Shown piece by piece: positions 11,786 to 23,835 of a DNA stretch of 64,000 nucleotides. Source of the DNA: Dehalococcoidia bacterium (lineage in GTDB: Bacteria > Chloroflexota > Dehalococcoidia > Dehalococcoidales > BS750m-G39); NCBI GenBank assembly GCA_050123275.1, contig JASFHK010000001.1:142684-206683 (forward strand), written 5' to 3'. The notes under the pieces were generated by a model. It searched no databases. It saw nothing but the letters and a program-made list of their open reading frames with translations, and was not told the DNA's origin. A program made the translations under genes and the position numbers. The stretch's first letter is position 1, and every line of letters begins with the position of its first letter.

Positions 11786-12406
11786 TTAGAGGCTGATTTT
11801 ACGCGGCGAGCGGCGGCACTTCTCGGCGGTGATAATGGCGGCGATGGTCTCGGCGGCGCGCTCGATTTCATCTCTCTCGTTAAAAACGACGTAGTCGAAG
11901 AGGTGTAGCTGTTTCATCTCCTCGGTGACGGTCTTCAACCTCAAATCGCAATCGACCTCGGACTCGGTCTTGCGCTCGCGGAGCCGGCTCTCCAGCTCCT
12001 CCTCGGTGGGGCAGGTGAGGAAGATAAAGACCGCCTCGGGCACTATTTTCTTAATCGTGGCCGCCCCCTGGACGTCCACCTTGACGATGGTATCCATTCC
12101 CGCCGCCAGGGCTTCCCTTACCGGCGCCTTGGGCACGCCGTACCAGTTGCCGTAGACGTTGGCGTATTCCAGCAACTCGTTGTCTTCCAGCATCTTGCGG
12201 AAATCTGTTTCGGGGACGAATTTATAGTCCACGTTGTCTTTCTCGTTGGCCCGCTTGGGGCGGGTGGTGTTGGTAATGATAAACCGTGCCGGATAGCCCG
12301 TTCGCTTCATCTGGTTCAAAACGGCATCCTTGCCCGCTCCGGAGGGGCCGGAGAGGACGATGAGCAGCGGGCTGGTGGGGATATTATTAAGGTTCGTCTT
12401 TTTCAT
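11786..12406 (-). CDS. gmk: guanylate kinase
   Basis: 206 aa. P-loop [17 protein letters not shown] motifs. Confidence 0.9.
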
Positions 12407-12680
12407 CGGCTGGGTCTGGCTTTATCAATGAGCCGCCCCGGCTGGCCTGGAGCCGGCCGGCAATGGTTTCCGGGGCAAGTGCGCCCAGTATAATATGGCC
12501 GCTATCGGTAAAGATAACGGCTTTGGTTCTACGGCCGCTGGTCATGTCAATCAGCAACCCCTTGTTTTTGCTTTGCTGGATGGTCCGTTTGGTCGGCGCG
12601 GAATTTGGCGAAGCGATGGCGATGACTCTGTTTACGGAAAGTATGTTACCAAATCCGATATGAATAAGCTCGGTGACCAT
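12387..12680 (-). CDS. remA: RemA/DUF370 family regulator
   Basis: [49 protein letters not shown]. Start moved to ATG 12680, which has GAGGTG 6 nt upstream. Confidence 0.85.
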
Positions 12681-12840
12681 GTTTAACACCTCGGCAGATT
12701 ACTTTTTGTGATGTCGGGGTTTTTTTACGATAGTTCAACAATCGGTGATAACGACCACCCCTTCCTCTGTAGAAAATGGGATGCTTAATATAATATACCT
12801 TTAACATTGTTTAGGCAACGGCTTTCAGGCACAGGACAAC

Positions 12841-12869
12841 TTGAATTTTTTCGGATTAGCTGCTATTCT
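12841..12869 (+). promoter_or_regulatory. candidate sigma-70 promoter for the nfnAB-like operon
   Basis: TTGAAT (12841-12846), 17-nt spacer, then TGcTATTCT extended -10 (12861-12869). Confidence 0.35.
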
Positions 12870-12906
12870 TTCTGGGGTTTAATCGTTCATGAGAGACTAT
12901 CTAGGG

Positions 12907-12946
12907 GGCTATCTCCCATCACCGCTACGGAGGTAGCCTTTTTATT
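12907..12946 (+). terminator. terminator-like hairpin inside the 5' leader of the nfnAB-like operon (attenuator candidate)
   Basis: GGCTATCTCC (12907-12916) pairs with GGAGGTAGCC (12929-12938) with 1 mismatch, followed by TTTTTATT. Lies 12 nt before the SD of the TTG start at 12972. Confidence 0.4.
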
Positions 12947-12971
12947 CAAACTTTTTTCGAGGTGAGCCGCT

Positions 12972-13802
12972 TTGTATAAGATTTTAGCTAAAGAAGACCT
13001 GGTGCCCCAGATTCACCTGTTCAAGATGGAGGCGCCGGCCGTGGCCAAAAAGGCGCGGGCGGGCCAGTTCGTCGTGGTCAGGATTGACGAAAAGGGCGAG
13101 CGCATTCCGCTGACCATCGCCGACTACGACCAGAAAGAAGGCACCGTCACCATCGTCTTTATGGAGGTGGGGGCCACCACCGCCCGCCTGGCTAAGCTCA
13201 ATGCCGGCGACAGCGTCGCCGACTTCGTGGGGCCGCTGGGCGTGCCCGCCGAAATCGAGAACTACGGCACCGTCGTCTGCGTGGCCGGCGGCGTGGGCGC
13301 CGCTCCGGTAGCGCCCATCGCCCGCGCTTTAAAGCAGGCGGGCAACAAGATAATCACCATTTTGGGGGCGCGCTCCAAAGAGCTGCTCTTCTGGGAAGAC
13401 GTGCTTAAAGCCAGCAGCGACCGCATGATTGTCACCACCGACGACGGCACCTACGGGCTTAAGGGCGTCGTCACCGAGCCGCTCAAGGAGCTTCTGGAAA
13501 GCGAAAAGATCGACCGCGTCGTCGCCATCGGCCCCGTGGTCATGATGAAGTTCTGCTCGCTGACCACCCAGCCCTTCGGGGTCAAGACCATCGTTAGCCT
13601 CAACCCCATCATGGTGGACGGCACCGGGATGTGCGGCTGCTGCCGCGTCGCCGTCGGCGGCGAGACCAAGTTCGCCTGCGTCGACGGCCCCGATTTCGAC
13701 GGTCACCAGGTCGACTGGGACCTGATGGGCGCCCGCCAGCAAATCTACGTCGAAGAAGAAAGATGTGCTTTTGAGGAGTGGCAAAAAAGCCACTCGTCCT
13801 GA
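12972..13802 (+). CDS. sulfide/dihydroorotate dehydrogenase-like FAD/NAD-binding subunit (NfnA-like)
   Basis: 276 aa. Ferredoxin-reductase-type fold and C-terminal 2Fe-2S Cys cluster GTGMCGCCRV..FACVDGP. Confidence 0.8.
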   Translation: MYKILAKEDLVPQIHLFKMEAPAVAKKARAGQFVVVRIDEKGERIPLTIADYDQKEGTVTIVFMEVGATTARLAKLNAGDSVADFVGPLGVPAEIENYGTVVCVAGGVGAAPVAPIARALKQAGNKIITILGARSKELLFWEDVLKASSDRMIVTTDDGTYGLKGVVTEPLKELLESEKIDRVVAIGPVVMMKFCSLTTQPFGVKTIVSLNPIMVDGTGMCGCCRVAVGGETKFACVDGPDFDGHQVDWDLMGARQQIYVEEERCAFEEWQKSHSS

Positions 13803-13813
13803 GGAGTTAGTCA

Positions 13814-15205
13814 ATGGCCAAACTGAATCTTAACCGTGTGCCCATGCCCCGCCAGGAGCCCCGGGAAAGGGCCCAAAACTTTAAGGAAGTCGCCCTGGGC
13901 TACAGCCTGGAGCAGGCTAAAGAGGAAGCCTCCCGCTGCATCCAGTGCCCCAAGCGCAACTGCGTCGCGGGCTGCCCGGTGAACGTCGACATCCCCGATT
14001 TCATCAAGGCCATCCGCGAGGGCGATATGCCCGAAGCGGTCAGGGTCTTAAAGAGCAAGAACGCGCTGCCCGGCATCTGCGGGCGCGTTTGCCCCCAGGA
14101 GTCACAGTGCGAGTCCAAGTGCACCCTGGCGGCCAAGGACGCCCCCATCGCCATCGGGCGGCTGGAGCGCTTTGTCGCCGACTGGGAGCGGGAAAACAAG
14201 GCGAGCCAGGCTCCCGAGCTGCCTAAAGCTACCGGCAAAAAAGTGGCCGTGGTCGGCTCGGGCCCGGCGGGCTTAACCGCCGCCGCCGACCTGGCCAAGC
14301 TGGGCCACAGCGTCACCATCTTCGAGGCATTGCACGTGGCCGGCGGCGTTTTGATGTACGGCATCCCCGAGTTCCGTTTGCCCAAGGCAATCGTCCAGGC
14401 CGAGGTGGACTATGTCGCCTCTTTGGGCGTTAAAATCGAGCTGGACGCGGTGATCGGCAAGCTGGATACCGTGGACGAGCTTTTGGCCGACGGCTTCGAC
14501 GCCGTTTTTCTGGGCACGGGCGCCGGTCTGCCCATGTTTTTGGGCTATCCCAGCGAGAACCTGAACGGCATCTACTCGGCCAACGAGTTTTTGACCCGCG
14601 TCAACCTGATGAAGGCCTATCTCTTCCCCAACTACGACACGCCGGTCAAGATAGGCAAGCGGGTGGCCGTCATCGGCGGCGGCAACGTGGCCATGGACTC
14701 GGCGCGCTGTGCGTTGCGTTTGGGCGCCGACAAGGTCTACATCATCTACCGCCGCTCCGAAGTGGAGCTTCCCGCCCGTAAGGAAGAGGTGGAGAACGCC
14801 CAGGAAGAGGGCATCGAGTTCAAGTACCTGACCAACCCCAAGCGCTTTATCGGCGACGATAAGAACTGGGTGGTGGGCATGGAGTGCCACCAGATGGAGC
14901 TGGGCGAGCCCGACGACAGCGGGCGGCGCCGCCCCGTGGTTAAAGAGGGCAGCGAGTTCGTTATCGATGTCGACGAGGTCATCATCGCGCTGGGCACCCG
15001 CCCCAACCCGCTTATCGCTTCCACTACCGAGGGTCTGGAAACGACCAAATGGGGCACCGTGGTGGCTAATGAGGAGACGTTGAAGACGGTGAAGGACAAG
15101 GTCTGGGCGGGCGGCGATATCGTTACCGGTGCGGCCACGGTGATTAGCGCCATGGGCGCGGGCAAGATTGCCTCGGCGGACATGGACAAGTTTTTGAGGG
15201 GCTAA
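13814..15205 (+). CDS. NADPH-dependent glutamate synthase small-chain homologue (NfnB/GltD-like)
   Basis: 463 aa. CIQCPKRNCVAGCP and CGRVCP Fe-S motifs. VAVVGSGPAGL and VIGGGNVAMD dinucleotide folds. Confidence 0.85.
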   Translation: MAKLNLNRVPMPRQEPRERAQNFKEVALGYSLEQAKEEASRCIQCPKRNCVAGCPVNVDIPDFIKAIREGDMPEAVRVLKSKNALPGICGRVCPQESQCESKCTLAAKDAPIAIGRLERFVADWERENKASQAPELPKATGKKVAVVGSGPAGLTAAADLAKLGHSVTIFEALHVAGGVLMYGIPEFRLPKAIVQAEVDYVASLGVKIELDAVIGKLDTVDELLADGFDAVFLGTGAGLPMFLGYPSENLNGIYSANEFLTRVNLMKAYLFPNYDTPVKIGKRVAVIGGGNVAMDSARCALRLGADKVYIIYRRSEVELPARKEEVENAQEEGIEFKYLTNPKRFIGDDKNWVVGMECHQMELGEPDDSGRRRPVVKEGSEFVIDVDEVIIALGTRPNPLIASTTEGLETTKWGTVVANEETLKTVKDKVWAGGDIVTGAATVISAMGAGKIASADMDKFLRG

Positions 15206-15256
15206 GAGTTAGTTGGGGGGTAGGGTATAATAACCTAGCGGCGTAAGAATTAGCAG

Positions 15257-15451
15257 CTAACTGTCTCCGATATGCCTTGAGCCAACTACTTGATGGGCCA
15301 AAGCATTCCAGTTGTCGGCTTGCTTTGGAATAACTTGGAGTGTCTCAGACTCTTCCTTGAGTATTTGGGCAGTGACTTCTTTGTAAATGGCATCCTCCTC
15401 CCCCTTCCCAAGTAGCTCTTCGATTGGTGGTAATGCTTCTTTTTTCATCAC
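15257..15451 (-). CDS. hypothetical acidic 64-aa protein (AT-rich islet 1)
   Basis: Its start ATG overlaps the stop of the upstream 498-aa ORF (ATGA at 15448-15451). Composition matches the islet. Confidence 0.5.
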   Translation of the reverse strand: MMKKEALPPIEELLGKGEEDAIYKEVTAQILKEESETLQVIPKQADNWNALAHQVVGSRHIGDS

Positions 15452-16944
15452 ATTTCCCCCAAGTTGTGGGTATATTGGTTAAATTCCTCGGGTGCATCAT
15501 GAATTTTATGGGACCGTCCTTCGACTGTCAAGGTATTTTGTAACCGTATATATATGTTGGCGTCTTCGTTCGGGTTGGCGGTCGAGTCCATTACAATTTC
15601 TGCAGTACATTTACCTTGCCGATAAAGACTAACGGGGCCAGCCTCCATAACCCATATGAAGTGAGGTAACTCCATTCGAGTCACAATGTAGTTTAACATA
15701 TCGGGTTTCCTGCGATCAATTGCTTGGACTTTCCGCCGCTGGAACGAAGTGTTTGTTGTCAAGAATAATCTGAGTACGATTGGTTCATCTTTGGCGCTTA
15801 TTTTTTGTTTATAAGCTAAGAGATACCTCCTTGCTTTTTTTCGCACTCGATTGGCAGGGAGGAATACTTTCTCGGGGAGGGGGCAAACTGCTGTGATCAT
15901 TGATTTCATACTGATGCCTTGGGGCTCTGTGACCTCCGGATTTGTTGCGTAGGCTCTGCCATAGTTCTGCTCATCATTGAAATCACCAAGCAATTGGTAG
16001 GGCGGGAAATTATCGTCCACTACAATAAATCGGTCATGAAAAGAAGAACTATCAACGAAACCGTCTACGTCTGCATCGGGGGATTTAGCATAATCAATCG
16101 TATGACCGATTATTGTTATGACATGCCCAAGAAAGCTAGTCAACGCTGGAAAACCCGATTCGAGATAAGCACATAAATCCAGATATTCCTCATTGTTGAA
16201 AACCAAGCTACCTAAAGGATTGGTGCCAAACCTGCGAATTCTCATTATACAAGGGTGAACTCCAAACTCAGATAATATACGAGAGTAATCTGAATATGTC
16301 ATACCTCGGTAGGGGAACGTTCTGCCTTGACTTGGTTCAGTCAGGTTTATCAAATCAAATGGGTACGTCTCCCCATACATGGAATATTTTTCTGATAAAT
16401 ACCTACATACCCCCCATAAAGCAGTGTGCGCGCAGACGGTAACGTCTACATCTTGAGACATATAGGGATAACCGCTAGCTATGAAATGCTGCCCTCCGAT
16501 GTGAGTCTTGAAGTCGGCTGTTAAGCAATAAGGTTTTGCTGATTTGAATTTCGCCAGTTTTTGAGGGTTTATAACTGTGCGACCGATACATCTTTCAGCG
16601 ACTGGTCGTATTACGCTATAGCCGATATAGCTTTTTCTATAGGATTGCGGGTTTAAAACCAAGTCATCCACGTTCACATCGGGGACATCAAAGAAATGAA
16701 GGCGGTTGGTGTACTTAGGAATTCGCTCGTGTTTCTTTGAGTAAAAGTGGGAATATAAGTTTCGATGATCTTTGCAAACATAATTTGGCTCAAATACGAT
16801 ACTTCGTACTGTGTCAGCTAGTAGCGAGGTGAGCATTCTCCTCCCCCAAGGGGAGAGGTTCGTACAGGTAGACTGTAGCTTATTCCAGTCTTCACTCCTG
16901 TGCGTGTCTCTGATATTGAATGTTTGTCGTTCAGAAAGAAACAT
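15448..16944 (-). CDS. hypothetical protein with papain-fold-like Gln/Cys..His..Asp motif order (candidate thiol peptidase)
   Basis: 498 aa. SQDVDVTVCAHTALWGVCRYL (Cys codon 16432-16434), GHVITIIGH, FIVVDDN. AT-rich. An alternative start at Met37 is possible. Confidence 0.6.
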   Translation of the reverse strand: MFLSERQTFNIRDTHRSEDWNKLQSTCTNLSPWGRRMLTSLLADTVRSIVFEPNYVCKDHRNLYSHFYSKKHERIPKYTNRLHFFDVPDVNVDDLVLNPQSYRKSYIGYSVIRPVAERCIGRTVINPQKLAKFKSAKPYCLTADFKTHIGGQHFIASGYPYMSQDVDVTVCAHTALWGVCRYLSEKYSMYGETYPFDLINLTEPSQGRTFPYRGMTYSDYSRILSEFGVHPCIMRIRRFGTNPLGSLVFNNEEYLDLCAYLESGFPALTSFLGHVITIIGHTIDYAKSPDADVDGFVDSSSFHDRFIVVDDNFPPYQLLGDFNDEQNYGRAYATNPEVTEPQGISMKSMITAVCPLPEKVFLPANRVRKKARRYLLAYKQKISAKDEPIVLRLFLTTNTSFQRRKVQAIDRRKPDMLNYIVTRMELPHFIWVMEAGPVSLYRQGKCTAEIVMDSTANPNEDANIYIRLQNTLTVEGRSHKIHDAPEEFNQYTHNLGEM

Positions 16945-17154
16945 CGGCTACAACTTCTGAATTGTGCCGATGCAATTATTCCAGAGAATTCTTCCCGTGT
17001 CAACCCTTTGCGGACATATTTTGTTCCCCAAAGGGGAAAACTCTAAATACTAATCTCTAAATTCCAAATTTTTAGGATTTCGGATTTCGTGCTTCGAATT
17101 TCACTTTAGGTGTTTTTTCTAGTAAAATTGTCTCTGATTCTGTGAGGTGAAAAA

Positions 17155-18048
17155 ATAGCCGTTACACTGGAAAACGTCGCCCCCGAAACCTACCGCCTGG
17201 AAAAGAAAATCCCCGGCGCTAACGCCCCCTTCGCCGTTTACTTCATCGAGGACGGCGGTGGCGCCATCATCGAGCCGGGCCCGGCTACCATTTTCCCCGA
17301 AATAAAACAGGCCGCCGCGCAGCTGGGCATCACCGAGCCCGAATACATCATCCCCACCCACATCCACCTCGACCACGCCGGTGGGCTGGGCAAGCTGGCG
17401 CAGGCCTTCCCCGGAGCCAGAATCGTGCTCAACCGCCAGGGGGCGAAGCACATGGTGGAGCCGACGCGGCTGATTAACAGCACCAAGATGGCTTTCGGCG
17501 ACGACTTCGAAAGAATCTACGGCGCCATCATACCGCTGGAAGAATCGCGGCTGAAGCTGGTCGAGGACGGCGATAGGCTAAAGCTGGGCGGGCGTGAATT
17601 ACTTATCGTCCATACCCCCGGCCACGCCGGCCACCACATCGCCATCTTCGACGAAAAGACGCGGGGGCTTTTCTGCGGCGAGTCGCTGGGCCTGATTTAC
17701 AGCCCCGGCTATCCGCCCCTCCCCGCCGTGGCCCCGCCCAGCTTCGATTTGGAGCTTTACCTCAAGGACATGGAAAAACTGAAAGGCTTAAAGCCCGAAC
17801 TGCTCTTTTACTCTCACGGCGGCGCCGCCACCGGGCCGGACAGGCTCATCGACACGGCCATGGAGAACTCGAAGCTGGTCGGCGACTTGATACTAAAGAA
17901 ACTGAAGGCGGGCGAGAGCGACGAGGCCATCGTCAAATACATCGGCGACTACCTCATCGAGCGTTTCAACGCCCCGCTGGACGAATACGAGCTGTTGAGC
18001 AACGTCAGCGGCTATATCTTCTACTTTCGTAAAAAAGGACTGGTTTAA
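17155..18048 (+). CDS. MBL-fold metallo-hydrolase (no canonical start codon; ATA 17155 proposed)
   Basis: The frame is open from 17146. Translation (I)AVTLENVAPETYRL..IIPTHIHLDHAGGL..HTPGHAGHH. The ORF track begins only at the internal GTG 17425. GAGGTG lies 5 nt before the ATA. Confidence 0.7.
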   Translation: MAVTLENVAPETYRLEKKIPGANAPFAVYFIEDGGGAIIEPGPATIFPEIKQAAAQLGITEPEYIIPTHIHLDHAGGLGKLAQAFPGARIVLNRQGAKHMVEPTRLINSTKMAFGDDFERIYGAIIPLEESRLKLVEDGDRLKLGGRELLIVHTPGHAGHHIAIFDEKTRGLFCGESLGLIYSPGYPPLPAVAPPSFDLELYLKDMEKLKGLKPELLFYSHGGAATGPDRLIDTAMENSKLVGDLILKKLKAGESDEAIVKYIGDYLIERFNAPLDEYELLSNVSGYIFYFRKKGLV

Positions 18049-22349: not shown

Positions 22350-22708
22350 GATTTGATTTCGAGGTTTTCGATTTTTACCTTGGTGCCGCCTTCGCAGTTG
22401 ACGGTCTCACTCTTACCTTCGGCTATAGTGACTGTCTGCGTTGAGCCGTCGGGACAGGTGACGGTAACCGTTACCGACTCTTCATCCTTGTCTATCTCGT
22501 CAGCGTGAACGCTGGCGCTATTATCGCCGACAGTGATAGAACCGGTGGTGCATACCTGAAACCATAAGTGACCGTCTATGGTGCCTCCGGTGCCGCCGGG
22601 AAAGGTGATGTCTATCTTCAGTCTGGCTTGCGGTTCACCGTTACAGCCGACCATAATCAGCGCTGCCGTCAGTAACAGGACTATAAAAATCAATACCTTC
22701 CGCTTCAT
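22346..22708 (-). CDS. hypothetical lipoprotein
   Basis: 120 aa with signal peptide and lipobox MVGC. Confidence 0.55.
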   Translation of the reverse strand: MKRKVLIFIVLLLTAALIMVGCNGEPQARLKIDITFPGGTGGTIDGHLWFQVCTTGSITVGDNSASVHADEIDKDEESVTVTVTCPDGSTQTVTIAEGKSETVNCEGGTKVKIENLEIKS

Positions 22709-22874
22709 TTTGCCGCTACCTCCCTTAACTCTAATTTTGGCTCTCTTTGCCTATCGGGGAGTTACTGCCGAAGCGATAGGCTTCCGGTTTTAGCAATGAC
22801 AAATCGGCCGTGTCGTATTAAGGTGGAATCAAAGACACACCATCTCCCTCACCGCCATCTCCGCACCGCCGAAG

Positions 22875-23075
22875 CTATTTCATGCTCAATTTCTTGGTGG
22901 GGGTAGGGATGCCGAGCACGCATTGGCTCTGGCTCACCATCTTGGTGCAGGCGTCGCAAAGCGTGGCTTGCCGGGGTTGACCCTCGCGCAGGTTGCGGGC
23001 AGCGATGCTCTTACCGTCCGGGCAGTTCTTACAAACGTGGTAGATTTCCGGCTTTAACCCAGAATAGTAAGCCAT
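22875..23075 (-). CDS. small zinc-ribbon-like protein (66 aa)
   Basis: Start moved to ATG 23075, which has AAGGAGG 7 nt upstream. MAYYSGLKPEIYHVCKNCPDG..LCDACTK carries two CxxC pairs. Confidence 0.55.
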   Translation of the reverse strand: MAYYSGLKPEIYHVCKNCPDGKSIAARNLREGQPRQATLCDACTKMVSQSQCVLGIPTPTKKLSMK

Positions 23076-23214
23076 CTCGGCGCCTCCTTTTTTCAAGTCA
23101 TTTGTCTGTATAAATGCCTGAAAAATCGGTTCCTCGAAGCCGCCTCTCTTTATATTATAACCCAATTGTCAATCTCTTTGAACACAAAAGTGTTCTTATC
23201 GGCACGGTATTTTA

Positions 23215-23246
23215 CACAAAAAAACAACCCCCTCCGAAGGAGGGGG
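23215..23246 (-). terminator. intrinsic terminator downstream of the 23272-23835 gene
   Basis: 9-bp stem ACCCCCTCC/GGAGGGGGT with GAA loop (23226-23246). On the minus strand it is followed by a TTGTTTTTTTGT run. Confidence 0.6.
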
Positions 23247-23271
23247 TCTTTACGCGTGGCGGAGCCGGAGC

Positions 23272-23835
23272 TTATAGCCGCGGCTTGCACATTATCTCTT
23301 TAATCCTGATGTCGAAGAAGGTGTGGGTGTTGGCCGGTCTCATCACCACGGCGGTGTCGGCGCCGTGACCGCTGCCGGCGACGGCGATGATGTCCTCGTC
23401 GGTGCGCACCAGTCCCGCGTCGGCGGCCATGGCGGCGATTTCAAAGACTACCTTGGTACCCTGCCCGAAGGTGCGCAGGACGTCGGCGATGACCTCGCCC
23501 AGGACGAAGGTGTCGTACTTGCTGCGCATAGCGCGGCTCAAGCCCCCCAGGGCGTGGGCGGTGGTCAGAATAATGCCCCCCGCGGCCTCGACGGCTTTTC
23601 TATTCTCCTCGGTAAACTCCTGGGCGTTGGGCTGGCGCAGGCCGGTGACGTGTGTCACCACGATAACCTTTAGCCCCTGGAACGCCTCCATGGCTTTGAC
23701 GGCGGTCTCACCCACCGTCGAAGCGACCACTATCGTCCTTATGCCCAGCTCTTCGGCCCGCTTACGGGCGATTTTAAGCGTCTCCTTGGTGTTCTCTCTG
23801 CCCAGTTTGTCGAAATAGACCGTCTTGGTTTCCAT
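23272..23835 (-). CDS. pyruvate kinase alpha/beta (C-terminal-like) domain protein
   Basis: 187 aa. TVYFDKLGRENT..IRTIVVASTVGETA pattern recalled from this family. Confidence 0.65.
   Translation of the reverse strand: METKTVYFDKLGRENTKETLKIARKRAEELGIRTIVVASTVGETAVKAMEAFQGLKVIVVTHVTGLRQPNAQEFTEENRKAVEAAGGIILTTAHALGGLSRAMRSKYDTFVLGEVIADVLRTFGQGTKVVFEIAAMAADAGLVRTDEDIIAVAGSGHGADTAVVMRPANTHTFFDIRIKEIMCKPRL

What the first reader, a model, noticed from the sequence alone, without database searches (positions are those of the whole stretch)
15206..17146. AT-rich islet 1: a 498-aa protein with papain-fold-like catalytic motif order, wedged between nfnB and an MBL gene
Seen: an AT-rich segment of about 1.9 kb sits between the nfnB-like stop (15205) and the MBL gene. 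It carries two translationally overlapping minus-strand ORFs (ATGA at 15448-15451).

The 498-aa protein has three motifs in order:
- Gln164-x6-Cys171 in SQDVDVTVCAHTALWGVCRYL (Cys codon 16432-16434)
- GHVITIIGH (residues 273-281)
- FIVVDDN (306-312)

That is the Gln/Cys..His..Asp order and spacing typical of papain-fold thiol peptidases (C39-like or transglutaminase-like). It is flanked by an N-terminal region of about 160 aa and a C-terminal region of about 180 aa that I cannot assign. There is no signal peptide or TM segment. I saw no mobility gene and no flanking direct repeats.

Inference: this is a laterally acquired two-gene module, such as peptidase plus substrate or inhibitor, toxin plus immunity, or a defence effector. 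I do not recognise the family.
Basis: partly seen in the sequence, partly recalled or inferred. Interest (0 to 1): 0.7.

Follow-up and report, generated by a model that had tools for sequence, protein, structure and literature searches.

The report
Orphan cysteine protease with tiny partner
A foreign, AT-rich two-gene cassette in a Dehalococcoidia genome encodes an uncharacterised papain-type cysteine protease and a tiny helical partner protein; the pair is widespread, mobile and unnamed, and looks like a toxin–antitoxin or anti-phage type module whose function nobody has tested.

Summary
Window 15206-17146 is an AT-rich islet (GC 0.43 against 0.61 in the flanks). It carries a 498-aa and a 64-aa minus-strand ORF that overlap, plus its own sigma70-like promoter.

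- **Fold:** the large protein has a papain-fold (clan CA, C39-like) core. Gln164, Cys171, His274 and Asp310 are invariant down to 23% identity. The AF2 model (pLDDT 88) matches only papain-fold peptidases with high probability. Weak Pfam C39_2/C10/C39/C70 hits occur in relatives.
- **No family assignment:** Pfam, NCBIfam, PADLOC, PHROGs and PDB sequences do not recognise the window protein. The N- and C-terminal regions remain unassigned.
- **Family size:** at least 1,555 clusters at 50% identity (E<=1e-10), spread across many bacterial phyla and one MAG labelled only 'archaeon'.
- **Partner:** a 52-76-aa partner (longer in a few loci) accompanies the large gene in about 45 of 46 loci. It lies downstream or, in distant clades, upstream. 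Its sequence family and charge change between clades and complement the charge of the large protein.
- **Mobility:** the cassette is AT-richer than its flanks in 29 of 30 loci. In close relatives the same nfnB-MBL slot holds different cargo.
- **Context:** neighbours include integrases, plasmids and defence genes. Ubiquitin-like/E1 (Bil-type) operons are adjacent on four separate branches. One relative is fused to TIR.

Function is inferred, not shown. My best reading is a toxin-antitoxin-like or defence module in which the partner restrains the protease.

The parts
15206..17146 (.). AT-rich foreign islet filling the nfnB-MBL intergenic slot. The cargo proper spans about 15206-17090. The last ~55 nt are the conserved MBL promoter and Shine-Dalgarno block.
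   Evidence: GC is 0.43 against 0.61 in the flanks. Relatives L063, L065, L066, L067, L071 and L101 keep the nfnA-nfnB-MBL-membrane gene synteny but hold different AT-rich cargo in this slot. The right border block is conserved in the alignment.
16975..17003 (-). Sigma70-like promoter of the cassette: TTGACA, 17-nt spacer, AATAAT, with an extended-10 TG.
   Evidence: It matches 11 of 12 consensus positions, the joint-best site in the scan. It lies 31 nt upstream of the ATG at 16944. This is a consensus match only; transcription has not been shown.
15448..16944 (-). The 498-aa cytoplasmic protein. It has an unassigned N-terminal alpha/beta region, a papain-fold cysteine peptidase core and an unassigned C-terminal alpha/beta region.
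   Evidence: ORF. Homologues: 498 hits, and 1,555 clusters at E<=1e-10. AF2 model has pLDDT 88 and pTM 0.90. No Pfam, NCBIfam, PADLOC, PHROGs or PDB-sequence match.
15910..16497 (-). Peptidase core, about residues 150-345. Gln164 is at 16453-16455, Cys171 at 16432-16434, His274 at 16123-16125 and Asp310 at 16015-16017.
   Evidence: All four residues are invariant in 59 sequences. In the model Cys171 opens helix 171-186, His274 opens strand 274-283, and Asp310 follows strand 303-309. Foldseek matches ZUP1 and staphopain. Relatives give Pfam C39_2, C10, C39 and C70 hits.
16498..16944 (-). N-terminal region, about residues 1-149. It carries conserved motifs E52-x2-Y55-x-CKD(57-59), FYSKK(66-70), R81-L-H83-FF and IGRT(120-123). 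Its fold is unassigned.
   Evidence: It shows no relation to the C-terminal or central region by hhalign. No credible Foldseek hit covers it.
15451..15909 (-). C-terminal region, about residues 346-498. It contains R392, the LPHFIWVME motif (426-434), D453 and the terminal NLGE. Its fold is unassigned.
   Evidence: Invariant columns. No credible structural or sequence match.
15257..15451 (-). Small partner of 64 aa from the GTG start, or 63 aa from the ATG at 15448. It is acidic and predicted all-helical. Its conserved C-terminal motif is W48-x2-LA-x-QVVG57, followed by a short floppy tail. It is translationally coupled to the large gene.
   Evidence: ORF and overlap. It is conserved across phyla; V56 and G57 are invariant and W48 is near-invariant. 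The AF2 single-sequence model gives helices 9-15 and 18-56, pLDDT 74. A partner is present in about 45 of 46 loci.

Best explanation
The islet is a horizontally acquired two-gene cassette that carries its own promoter.

**Shown.**
- Gene 1 encodes a cytoplasmic ~500-aa enzyme. Its core is a papain-fold (clan CA, C39-like) cysteine peptidase with a complete catalytic set: Gln164 for the oxyanion hole, Cys171, His274 and Asp310. Two family-specific regions of unknown fold flank the core.
- Gene 2 encodes a ~60-aa helical protein that is almost always encoded beside gene 1.
- The cassette moves between very distant lineages. It lands in variable slots, islands and plasmids.

**Inferred.**
- The small protein binds the peptidase. 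The likely contact is its conserved C-terminal tail lying in the substrate cleft, with hydrophobic Val56 at P2 and Gly57 at P1. This keeps the peptidase inactive. The pair would then behave like a toxin-antitoxin or abortive-infection module.
- Loss, titration or degradation of the labile partner would free the protease to cleave cellular or phage proteins. Triggers could be phage infection or loss of the mobile element.
For: **Peptidase identity.**
- The residues sit on the canonical secondary-structure elements in a model with pLDDT 88 and pTM 0.90.
- The only high-probability Foldseek hits are papain-fold enzymes: ZUP1 at 0.97 and staphopain at 0.96, 0.92 and 0.87.
- 20 of 59 relatives hit Peptidase_C39_2. 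Others hit C10, C39, C70 and phytochelatin synthase.

**Obligate pairing.**
- A small ORF lies next to the large gene.
- A recognisable partner is present in about 45 of 46 loci.
- A permissive ORF test found a small ORF in 41 of 42 loci, against 14 expected from shuffles.
- Gene order flips to upstream in distant plasmid relatives.
- Start and stop codons overlap.

**Physical interaction (indirect evidence).**
- The partner family is swapped between clades. hhalign probability between the two partner types is 0.1%.
- Charges are complementary. Clade A has acidic partners (pI 4.5) with net-basic large proteins (+3.7). Clade B and deeper branches have basic partners (pI 9.9-11) with net-acidic large proteins (-5.0). 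Mann-Whitney p = 4.5e-5.
- Conservation in the partner is concentrated in its C-terminal tail.

**Mobility and conflict context.**
- The cassette is AT-richer than its flanks in 29 of 30 loci.
- The nfnB-MBL slot is hypervariable among close relatives.
- It has its own promoter.
- Integrases and resolvases are adjacent.
- It occurs on conjugative and mobilisable plasmids.
- Neighbours include BilBCD, MADS, CapH/CapP, type I and III restriction enzymes, AbiEi, HEPN and a caspase-family gene.
- One relative carries an N-terminal TIR_2 domain, E = 5e-28.
- The distribution is patchy but spans many phyla, in MAGs only, including a CPR bacterium and one MAG labelled only 'archaeon'.
- It also occurs as a stand-alone pair among housekeeping genes, as toxin-antitoxin modules typically do.
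Against: - No experiment or complex model links the partner to inhibition. The tools cannot model the heterodimer.
- PADLOC, Pfam and PHROGs do not list the family. The literature searches found no description.
- The defence-gene neighbourhood was not compared with a background rate. About half of the annotated contexts are plain housekeeping genes.
- A 500-aa toxin with a downstream antitoxin that lacks a DNA-binding domain is atypical for type II toxin-antitoxin systems.
- The conserved Val-Gly in the tail fits a cleavage site just as well. The partner could be a substrate rather than an inhibitor.
- The charge-complementarity statistic ignores phylogenetic non-independence.
- The TIR-fused relative shows no partner within its short flanks. 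The partner is therefore not needed in every architecture.
Confidence: 0.5

Rival explanations
1. The small protein is the substrate, not the inhibitor. The peptidase cleaves it after Val56-Gly57 in clade A. This would mature it into an active effector or into a Pup-like tag ending in Gly. The thioester intermediate could even transfer the tag to targets by transpeptidation.
For: Val-Gly is invariant at the end of the partner's long helix and is followed by a short, variable tail. A hydrophobic P2 with a small P1 suits papain-type S2 specificity (general knowledge of clan CA). The top fold hit is a deubiquitinase. Ubiquitin-like/E1 operons are repeatedly adjacent.
Against: Clade B and deeper partners end directly in ...KYLD...IRVS or ...IVLK, with no Gly and nothing to trim. 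The partner is predicted helical, not beta-grasp. Partner families are not homologous between clades. That fits a fast-evolving inhibitor better than a conserved modifier.
Confidence: 0.15
2. The cassette is an accessory of bacterial ubiquitin-like conjugation systems (Bil-type BilABCD, or Multi_ubiq-E2-E1). It would act as a papain-type deconjugase or processing enzyme, or as a regulator of those operons. Stand-alone copies such as the window's would then be remnants, or would act in trans.
For: Adjacency to ubiquitin-like/E1 operons occurs on four well-separated branches of the family tree: L001/L017/L026/L119, L028/L035, L116/L117 and L060. The best structural match is the deubiquitinase ZUP1.
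Against: Most loci have no ubiquitin-like or E1 gene within 5-10 kb, and the window has none adjacent to the islet. Two stand-alone copies lie among housekeeping genes. In L001, L017 and L026 the adjacent Bil operon already has its own JAB peptidase, BilC. The E1 similarities do not mirror the protease tree: L116 and L060 share 45% E1 identity, yet L116 groups with clade B for the protease. That points to repeated co-location in defence islands rather than co-evolution. An Xre-type HTH gene always lies next to the ubiquitin-like/E1 operon, between it and the cassette in L001, L017, L026, L028, L116 and L119, and on the far side of the operon in L060. By similarity it belongs to the ubiquitin-like operon.
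Confidence: 0.12
3. The catalytic domain is not a protease in vivo. It would be a papain-fold acyltransferase, amidase or transpeptidase acting on a small molecule or a carrier protein, in the manner of BtrH, arylamine N-acetyltransferase or phytochelatin synthase. The small protein would serve as carrier or adaptor.
For: Clan CA contains many non-protease enzymes with the same Cys-His-Asp set (general knowledge). One relative weakly hits phytochelatin synthase. The large conserved N- and C-terminal regions carry many invariant charged residues and could bind a non-protein ligand.
Against: No biosynthetic genes are consistently nearby. The small partner has no conserved Ser, Cys or Lys attachment site outside its tail. 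The sporadic, mobile distribution is unlike a metabolic gene.
Confidence: 0.1
4. This is a bacteriocin or RiPP-type system. A C39-like leader peptidase would process the small ORF as a precursor peptide.
For: The closest Pfam families are C39-like. The small adjacent ORF carries a Gly-containing motif.
Against: No ABC transporter is fused or consistently adjacent. Neither protein has a TM segment. There is no double-glycine leader at the N-terminus. Conservation lies in the C-terminal tail, and the 'core' would be a 57-residue acidic helix. No modifying enzymes are conserved nearby; the one radical SAM neighbour that could be traced (L121) is a UPF0004/TRAM (MiaB-type) gene.
Confidence: 0.04

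Closest known systems
Peptidase C39 and C39-like families (Pfam PF03412 and PF13529, clan CA): double-glycine leader peptidases of bacteriocin ABC exporters, and their stand-alone relatives
   Same: Both have a papain fold with Gln...Cys...His...Asp in the same order. They are the nearest sequence families: 20 of 59 relatives hit PF13529 (best E = 8.5e-6) and 2 hit PF03412. A small neighbouring protein carries a Gly-containing motif.
   Different: The window protein scores nothing against either model, even at E<=1. It is not fused or adjacent to an ABC transporter. The partner has no N-terminal double-glycine leader. The ~150-aa N- and C-terminal regions have no counterpart. The protein is cytoplasmic and the cassette is mobile.
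Staphopain-staphostatin pairs (peptidase C47 with a co-transcribed downstream inhibitor; PDB 1pxv, 1y4h)
   Same: A papain-fold protease gene is followed in the same operon by a small, specific partner. Staphopain is among the best structural matches (probability 0.96, TM about 0.53 over the staphopain chain). From my own knowledge of the staphostatin literature, the inhibitor lies in the cleft in the substrate direction with a critical Gly at P1. That parallels the invariant Val-Gly here. This is a lead, not a test.
   Different: Staphopain is a secreted ~175-aa mature enzyme made with a signal peptide and a propeptide. Staphostatins are ~105-aa beta-barrels, whereas this partner is a ~60-aa helix. 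There is no sequence similarity. This family has two extra regions and a very broad phyletic spread.
ZUP1/ZUFSP-type deubiquitinases (PDB 7oje)
   Same: This is the top Foldseek hit (E = 6e-3, probability 0.97, 268 aligned columns). The cassette repeatedly neighbours bacterial ubiquitin-like/E1 operons.
   Different: The TM-score is only 0.25-0.33 and identity is 14%. No ubiquitin-binding modules are present. Most copies, including the window's, have no ubiquitin-like system nearby.
Type II/IV toxin-antitoxin and two-gene abortive-infection modules (for example AbiE)
   Same: Shared features are a two-gene, translationally coupled and self-promoted cassette, and a small labile-looking partner. 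Partner swapping and order flipping also occur. So do a patchy distribution, plasmid or island or stand-alone chromosomal locations, and lower GC than the host.
   Different: I know of no described toxin-antitoxin toxin that is a papain-fold peptidase of this architecture. The partner has no recognisable DNA-binding domain. Toxicity and neutralisation are untested. No PADLOC model matches.

Membership tests
Clan CA (papain-fold) cysteine peptidases | Catalytic Cys at the N-terminus of an alpha-helix, with an oxyanion-hole Gln a few residues upstream. | tested here: met
   Cys171 opens helix 171-186 in the model. Gln164 lies 7 residues upstream. Both are invariant in 59 sequences.
Clan CA (papain-fold) cysteine peptidases | Catalytic His on a beta-strand, followed by Asp or Asn on the next strand, in the order Cys...His...Asp. 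| tested here: met
   His274 begins strand 274-283 and Asp310 follows strand 303-309. Both are invariant.
Clan CA (papain-fold) cysteine peptidases | Overall structural similarity to solved papain-fold enzymes. | tested here: met
   The only Foldseek PDB hits with probability >=0.87 are ZUP1 and staphopain. E-values are weak (6e-3 to 7e-2), and TM is 0.52-0.54 over the staphopain chain. No atomic check of catalytic geometry was possible.
Clan CA (papain-fold) cysteine peptidases | Cys-dependent peptide-bond hydrolysis. | not testable with these tools
   This needs enzymology with a Cys171Ala control.
Pfam Peptidase_C39_2 (PF13529) / Peptidase_C39 (PF03412) | Score at or above the curated gathering threshold. 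| tested here: not met
   The window protein gives no hit at E<=1. Relatives reach only sub-threshold or marginal scores; for example P0133 scores 16.9 bits against a cut-off of 24, and the best E-value is 8.5e-6.
C39 bacteriocin-processing peptidase systems | Peptidase fused to, or encoded with, an ABC exporter, with a substrate carrying an N-terminal double-glycine leader. | tested here: not met
   No transporter is fused or recurrent among 148 neighbouring ORFs. The partner's conserved motif is C-terminal and reads Val-Gly.
Staphopain/staphostatin (C47 with inhibitor) | Secreted pro-enzyme with signal peptide and propeptide; the inhibitor is an eight-stranded beta-barrel of about 105 aa. 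| tested here: not met
   No hydrophobic N-terminus or TM segment. The partner is predicted all-helical at 63 aa, from a single-sequence model with pLDDT 74.
Type II toxin-antitoxin modules | Bicistronic, co-transcribed pair with tightly coupled genes, spread by horizontal transfer. | tested here: met
   Stop and start codons overlap. The pair is conserved in about 45 of 46 loci. It is AT-richer than its flanks in 29 of 30 loci and sits in a variable slot.
Type II toxin-antitoxin modules | Toxin arrests growth, antitoxin neutralises by direct binding, and the antitoxin usually has a DNA-binding domain for autoregulation. | not testable with these tools
The partner has no Pfam domain. Charge complementarity is only indirect support for binding.
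Known anti-phage defence systems (PADLOC-DB 2.0) | Match to a model of a described or candidate defence protein. | tested here: not met
   No PADLOC hit for either protein at E<=1.
Bil-type / Multi_ubiq bacterial ubiquitin-like systems (as an extra component) | Consistent co-occurrence with ubiquitin-like, E2 and E1 genes. | tested here: not met
   Ubiquitin-like/E1 genes are adjacent in only about 9 of roughly 50 loci, on four branches. They are absent next to the window's cassette.

The most novel reading that the evidence does not exclude
The family is a previously unrecognised protease-based immune or conflict system that is functionally wired to bacterial ubiquitin-like (Bil/Multi_ubiq) pathways. 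One version: the papain-type enzyme senses or reverses ubiquitin-like conjugation. Another version: it uses its small helical partner as an E1/E2-independent, Pup-like tag, processed at the invariant Val-Gly and transferred through the Cys171 thioester. Stand-alone cassettes such as the window's would be the minimal form.
Probability: 0.12. Interest if true: 0.85.

Novelty: new variant of a known kind. Interest (0 to 1): 0.62.

Why it matters
The family is large. It has at least 1,555 clusters at 50% identity (3,153 at E<=1e-3). It occurs in many bacterial phyla, including a candidate-phyla-radiation (CPR) bacterium, and in one MAG labelled only 'archaeon'. It has no Pfam, NCBIfam, PADLOC or PHROGs model, and the literature searches found no description.

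It combines a clearly active-looking papain-type catalytic core with two unknown regions and a near-obligate, fast-evolving small partner. It travels as a minimal two-gene mobile cassette.

If it is a toxin-antitoxin or anti-phage module, it would add a cysteine-protease effector class with a new control logic. Its repeated placement beside bacterial ubiquitin-like systems, and a TIR fusion, give concrete and testable hypotheses.

The nfnB-MBL slot in these Dehalococcoidia is also a clean natural example of a cargo-swapping hotspot.

Tried and rejected
1. **Direct family assignment.** Pfam, NCBIfam, PADLOC, PHROGs and PDB sequence searches (single sequence and profile) gave nothing for either protein.
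2. **Phage origin.** No tblastn hit in 50,697 phage records, and no relative in IMG/VR. The first IMG/VR scan with the deep alignment failed for lack of a conserved stretch.
3. **Internal duplication of the N- and C-terminal regions.** hhalign probability is below 1%.
4. **One partner family across clades.** hhalign probability is 0.1%, so the partners are swapped or diverged beyond recognition.
5. **Partner as a beta-grasp ubiquitin-like protein.** It is predicted all-helical.
6. **Modelling the partner with its alignment.** A database search with the 64-aa partner found only itself.
7. **Flanking repeats, tRNA, att sites or an RNA element at the islet borders.** Only chance-level 12-15-nt repeats and no Rfam hit.
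8. **Identity of the alternative cargos in the same slot.** They are mostly orphans. One is a dCTP-deaminase-like fragment and one a weak DUF5677 match. There were no significant PADLOC hits; the only one was a marginal Csx1 match at E = 0.0077.
9. **Literature.** Three full-text searches and one paper read found no description of this family.
10. **Domain-wise fold search of the unassigned regions.** Not attempted. Sub-sequences of database proteins cannot be submitted, and Foldseek is already a local aligner.
11. **Model coordinates.** They are not exposed, so catalytic geometry and cleft accessibility could not be measured.
Full report
**1. The observation**

The six-frame ORF list shows a 498-aa ORF at 15448..16944 (-) and a 64-aa ORF at 15257..15451 (-). 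They lie between an NfnB/GltD-like gene (13814..15205, +) and an MBL-fold gene.

GC falls from about 0.62 to 0.41-0.45 across 15200-17200. The gap itself is 0.43, against 0.61 for the flanking genes.

The quoted motifs and the Cys171 codon (16432-16434) are correct. Three corrections apply.
- The junction reads ...GAA ATG TGA TG AAA... on the minus strand. The overlap is therefore GTGA (GTG start) or TGATG (ATG start at 15448), not ATGA.
- GenBank annotates the large gene from Met37 (462 aa, P0001). Residues 20-36 are conserved and Trp33 is invariant, which favours the 498-aa start.
- His281 is not conserved in the wider family.

A sigma70-like promoter lies at 17003-16975 on the minus strand, 31 nt upstream of the ATG. 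It reads TTGACA, 17-nt spacer, AATAAT, with a TG, and matches 11 of 12 positions. No Rfam family and no meaningful direct or inverted repeats mark the borders.

**2. What the large protein is**

Neither protein matches Pfam, NCBIfam, PADLOC, PHROGs or PDB sequences. A 59-sequence profile also finds nothing in PDB sequences.

The protein still has many relatives.
- 498 hits came from the word-indexed search, all labelled 'hypothetical' and none with a Pfam domain.
- An exhaustive HMMER search of 50%-identity representatives gave 3,153 hits at E<=1e-3, 1,555 at E<=1e-10 and 223 at E<=1e-30.

In 28 homologues (43-65% identity), Gln164, Cys171, His274, His281, Asp310, Asp311 and Asn312 are invariant. 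In 59 homologues down to 23% identity, the invariant set in the core narrows to Gln164, Cys171, Trp177, Ser263, Pro266, His274, Gly280 and Asp310.

An AlphaFold2 model built on the 28-sequence alignment is confident (pLDDT 88, pTM 0.90). It places the residues as follows:
- Cys171 at the start of helix 171-186;
- His274 at the start of strand 274-283;
- Asp310 just after strand 303-309.

This is the canonical papain arrangement.

Foldseek against the PDB gives high probability only to papain-fold enzymes. These are ZUP1 deubiquitinase 7oje (probability 0.97) and staphopain 1pxv, 1cv8 and 1y4h (0.96, 0.92, 0.87). Everything else is noise, with probability <=0.12. E-values are weak (>=6e-3), and the match covers only the central ~200-270 residues. 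BFVD gives only weak papain-like hits: an endolysin and a Josephin-domain protein.

Independent support comes from Pfam scans of the 59 relatives. 20 weakly hit Peptidase_C39_2 (best 8.5e-6), 5 hit C10, 2 hit C39, 1 hits C70 and 1 hits phytochelatin synthase. All these families are clan CA by my own knowledge of Pfam's clans; the tool output does not give clans.

The core (about residues 150-345) is therefore a new, divergent clan-CA family nearest to C39-like peptidases.

The N-terminal (~1-150) and C-terminal (~346-498) regions carry many invariant polar residues, including R81, R392, W431 and D453 and several conserved motifs. They are unrelated to each other and to the core. They have no credible structural neighbour. 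There is no TM segment (maximum KD19 of 1.34).

**3. The small partner**

Four distant neighbourhoods all showed a 60-73-aa ORF right after the large gene. Further contexts showed the same.

Across 52 genome loci from GTDB species representatives, a scripted scan and tblastn found a recognisable partner in about 45 of 46 loci with enough flank. The exception is next to a truncated large gene (L047). A deliberately permissive ORF test gave 41 of 42 loci, against 14 expected from shuffles.

The partners fall into clade-specific types.
- **Clade A** (39-74% identity to the window protein): partners are acidic (median pI 4.5). They end in W-x2-LA-x-QVVG-x-E, with Val-Gly invariant.
- **Clade B and deeper branches** (~23-33% identity): partners are basic (pI 9.9-11). 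They end in ...AHLKYLD...AYRIRVS...RRIVLK or similar.

The two types are not detectably homologous (hhalign probability 0.1%).

In three distant plasmid-borne relatives the small ORF lies immediately upstream instead.

The net charge of the large protein is complementary to its partner. The median is +3.7 in clade A and -5.0 in clade B and deeper, with Mann-Whitney p = 4.5e-5. This test is not corrected for phylogeny.

A single-sequence AF2 model of the window partner is all-helical, with helices 9-15 and 18-56 and a floppy tail after Val-Gly (pLDDT 74). It is not a beta-grasp fold.

The following together argue for a direct, co-evolving physical interaction centred on the partner's C-terminal tail:
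- near-obligate pairing;
- translational coupling;
- order flips;
- partner replacement;
- charge complementarity.

This interaction is inferred, not shown.

**4. Mobility and context**

All 52 genome-collection loci are MAGs. They come from Nitrospirota, Spirochaetia, Verrucomicrobiota, Lentisphaerota, Planctomycetota, Myxococcota, Binatia, Omnitrophota, Desulfobacterota, Pseudomonadota, Campylobacterota, a CPR bacterium and one MAG labelled only 'archaeon'.

The cassette is AT-richer than its flanks in 29 of 30 loci (mean -6 points, and -15 in the window).

Metagenomic relatives of the window's host keep the synteny nfnA-nfnB-[gap]-MBL-membrane protein, at 70-88% amino-acid identity across the flanking genes. 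None has the cassette. The 1.09-1.45-kb gap holds different AT-rich, minus-strand cargo in each lineage:
- two unrelated 278-aa proteins;
- a 321-aa protein;
- a 214-aa protein with a 174-aa membrane protein;
- a dCTP-deaminase-like fragment with a membrane protein.

The right border is the conserved MBL promoter and Shine-Dalgarno block. The slot is therefore a cargo-swapping hotspot, and the cassette is one of its alternative cargos.

No phage or IMG/VR relative exists. Distant relatives sit on plasmids of Mesorhizobium and Shewanella (conjugative) and Hymenobacter (non-mobilisable). Another sits on a gut Mob_Pre/CAT element.

I made a census of 148 ORFs within ~2.4 kb of the cassette in 32 loci. 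It shows no fixed third gene.
- **Pfam**: HTH_3 (6), ResIII (4), Radical_SAM (4), BilB-like (3), integrase (2), resolvase (2), HEPN (2). The one radical SAM neighbour I could trace to a locus (L121) is a UPF0004/TRAM (MiaB-type) gene.
- **PADLOC**: BilB, BilC and BilD (3 each), MADS components, CapH/CapP, type I, III and IIG restriction enzymes, RmrA, AbiEi and a dGTPase.

About half of the individually annotated contexts are plain housekeeping genes with the cassette inserted alone: the window, L006, L120 and L121. One relative (P0195) carries an N-terminal TIR_2 domain (E = 5e-28). It shows no partner within its short flanks.

**5. The ubiquitin-like connection**

Ubiquitin-like/E1 operons lie beside the cassette on four well-separated branches of a neighbour-joining tree of the large proteins.
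- L001/L017/L026/L119: BilABCD.
- L028/L035 (Omnitrophota): a ThiF-type E1.
- L116/L117: Multi_ubiq, a 128-aa protein, ThiF and Clp.
- L060 (Mesorhizobium plasmid): ThiF, a 130-aa protein and a multiubiquitin protein.

An Xre-type HTH gene always lies next to the ubiquitin-like operon. It sits between the operon and the cassette in every case except L060, where it lies on the far side of the operon. It is homologous within each type of ubiquitin-like system.

E1 relatedness does not mirror the protease tree. Most loci, including the window, lack any ubiquitin-like or E1 gene. I therefore read this as repeated co-location in defence islands. A functional link is a live minority hypothesis, and it is made more interesting by the ZUP1 fold hit.

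**6. Mechanism**

*Shown.* The catalytic set is intact and under strong purifying selection. The partner is near-obligate. The cassette is horizontally mobile, carries its own promoter, and occupies variable slots, islands and plasmids.

*Inferred, in three steps.*
- The partner binds the peptidase.
- Its conserved tail occupies the substrate cleft as a pseudo-substrate and keeps the enzyme off. Val56 would sit at P2 and Gly57 at P1. Clan-CA S2 pockets favour hydrophobic P2 residues (general knowledge).
- Loss or displacement of the partner releases proteolysis. This gives toxin-antitoxin or abortive-infection behaviour.

Staphopain-staphostatin is the closest mechanistic analogue. It also has a protease followed by a downstream small inhibitor. 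From my own knowledge, that inhibitor binds in the substrate direction with a key Gly at P1. It fails the membership tests, however: the enzyme is secreted and the inhibitor is a beta-barrel.

Rival readings are these: the partner is a substrate or tag, the cassette is an accessory of ubiquitin-like systems, the enzyme is a non-protease acyltransferase, or the pair is a bacteriocin/RiPP peptidase system. The last is the least likely. No transporter is present, there is no leader-type motif, and both proteins are cytoplasmic.

**7. Novelty and verdict**

The fold class is known. The family, its three-part architecture and the two-gene system are undescribed in every library and in the literature I could search.

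I classify it as a new variant of a known kind: a papain-fold peptidase with a cognate small partner in a mobile two-gene cassette. The function remains inferred.

Noticed in passing
window 17143-17170 (MBL-fold gene start): The MBL-fold gene has no ATG, GTG or TTG in frame before 17425, although the conserved N-terminus with the HxHxDH motif lies upstream. ATA at 17155, 4 nt after a GAGGTGA Shine-Dalgarno, aligns exactly with the GTG or ATG start of orthologues (L065, L066, L071). The ATA is shared by L063 and L067, so an ATA start codon is likely.
   Followed up: partly
L063:1588-2424, L065:2918-3896, L066:2932-3897, L067:372-1766, L071:887-1723 (the slot equivalent to window 15206-17146): The nfnB-MBL intergenic slot of related Dehalococcoidia is a hypervariable hotspot. 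Each lineage carries a different AT-rich minus-strand cargo, mostly orphan proteins. One is a dCTP-deaminase-like fragment and one a weak DUF5677 match. None is known to PADLOC.
   Followed up: partly
L001:9905-13180, L119:9011-12301, L017:11896-15142, L026:11920-15171, L116:3287-7345, L060:6548-9170, L028:12610-15484: Ubiquitin-like/E1 operons (BilABCD or Multi_ubiq-E2-like-ThiF), each with an Xre-type HTH gene, lie next to the cassette on four separate branches of the family tree. In L116 a 437-aa ClpP-family gene follows the E1.
   Followed up: partly
P0195 / L112:161-2077: One family member has an N-terminal TIR_2 domain fused to the full three-part body. No small partner ORF is visible within its short flanks (160 nt upstream, 208 nt downstream).
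   Followed up: partly
L113:2762-6933 (human gut metagenome contig): A 556-aa distant relative sits on a small element with a Mob_Pre relaxase and a chloramphenicol acetyltransferase. A 195-aa ORF overlaps its start and a basic 59-aa partner lies downstream. This lineage may have a third component.
   Followed up: no
window 16837-16944 (5' end of the large ORF): The GenBank/PGAP annotation (P0001, PVJ61_00860) starts the gene at Met37, behind a strong GGAGG. Residues 20-36 are conserved across phyla, so the deposited protein is probably N-terminally truncated by 36 residues.
   Followed up: yes
window 12400-13000 and 22400-23400: Two further GC dips, to 0.42 and to about 0.51, stand against a background of about 0.6. 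The first lies in the intergenic region upstream of nfnA. Neither was examined.
   Followed up: no
P0039 (644 aa) and P0158 (708 aa): Some relatives carry ~150-250-residue insertions inside the peptidase core, between the Cys helix and the His strand. The core tolerates large insertions at that point.
   Followed up: no
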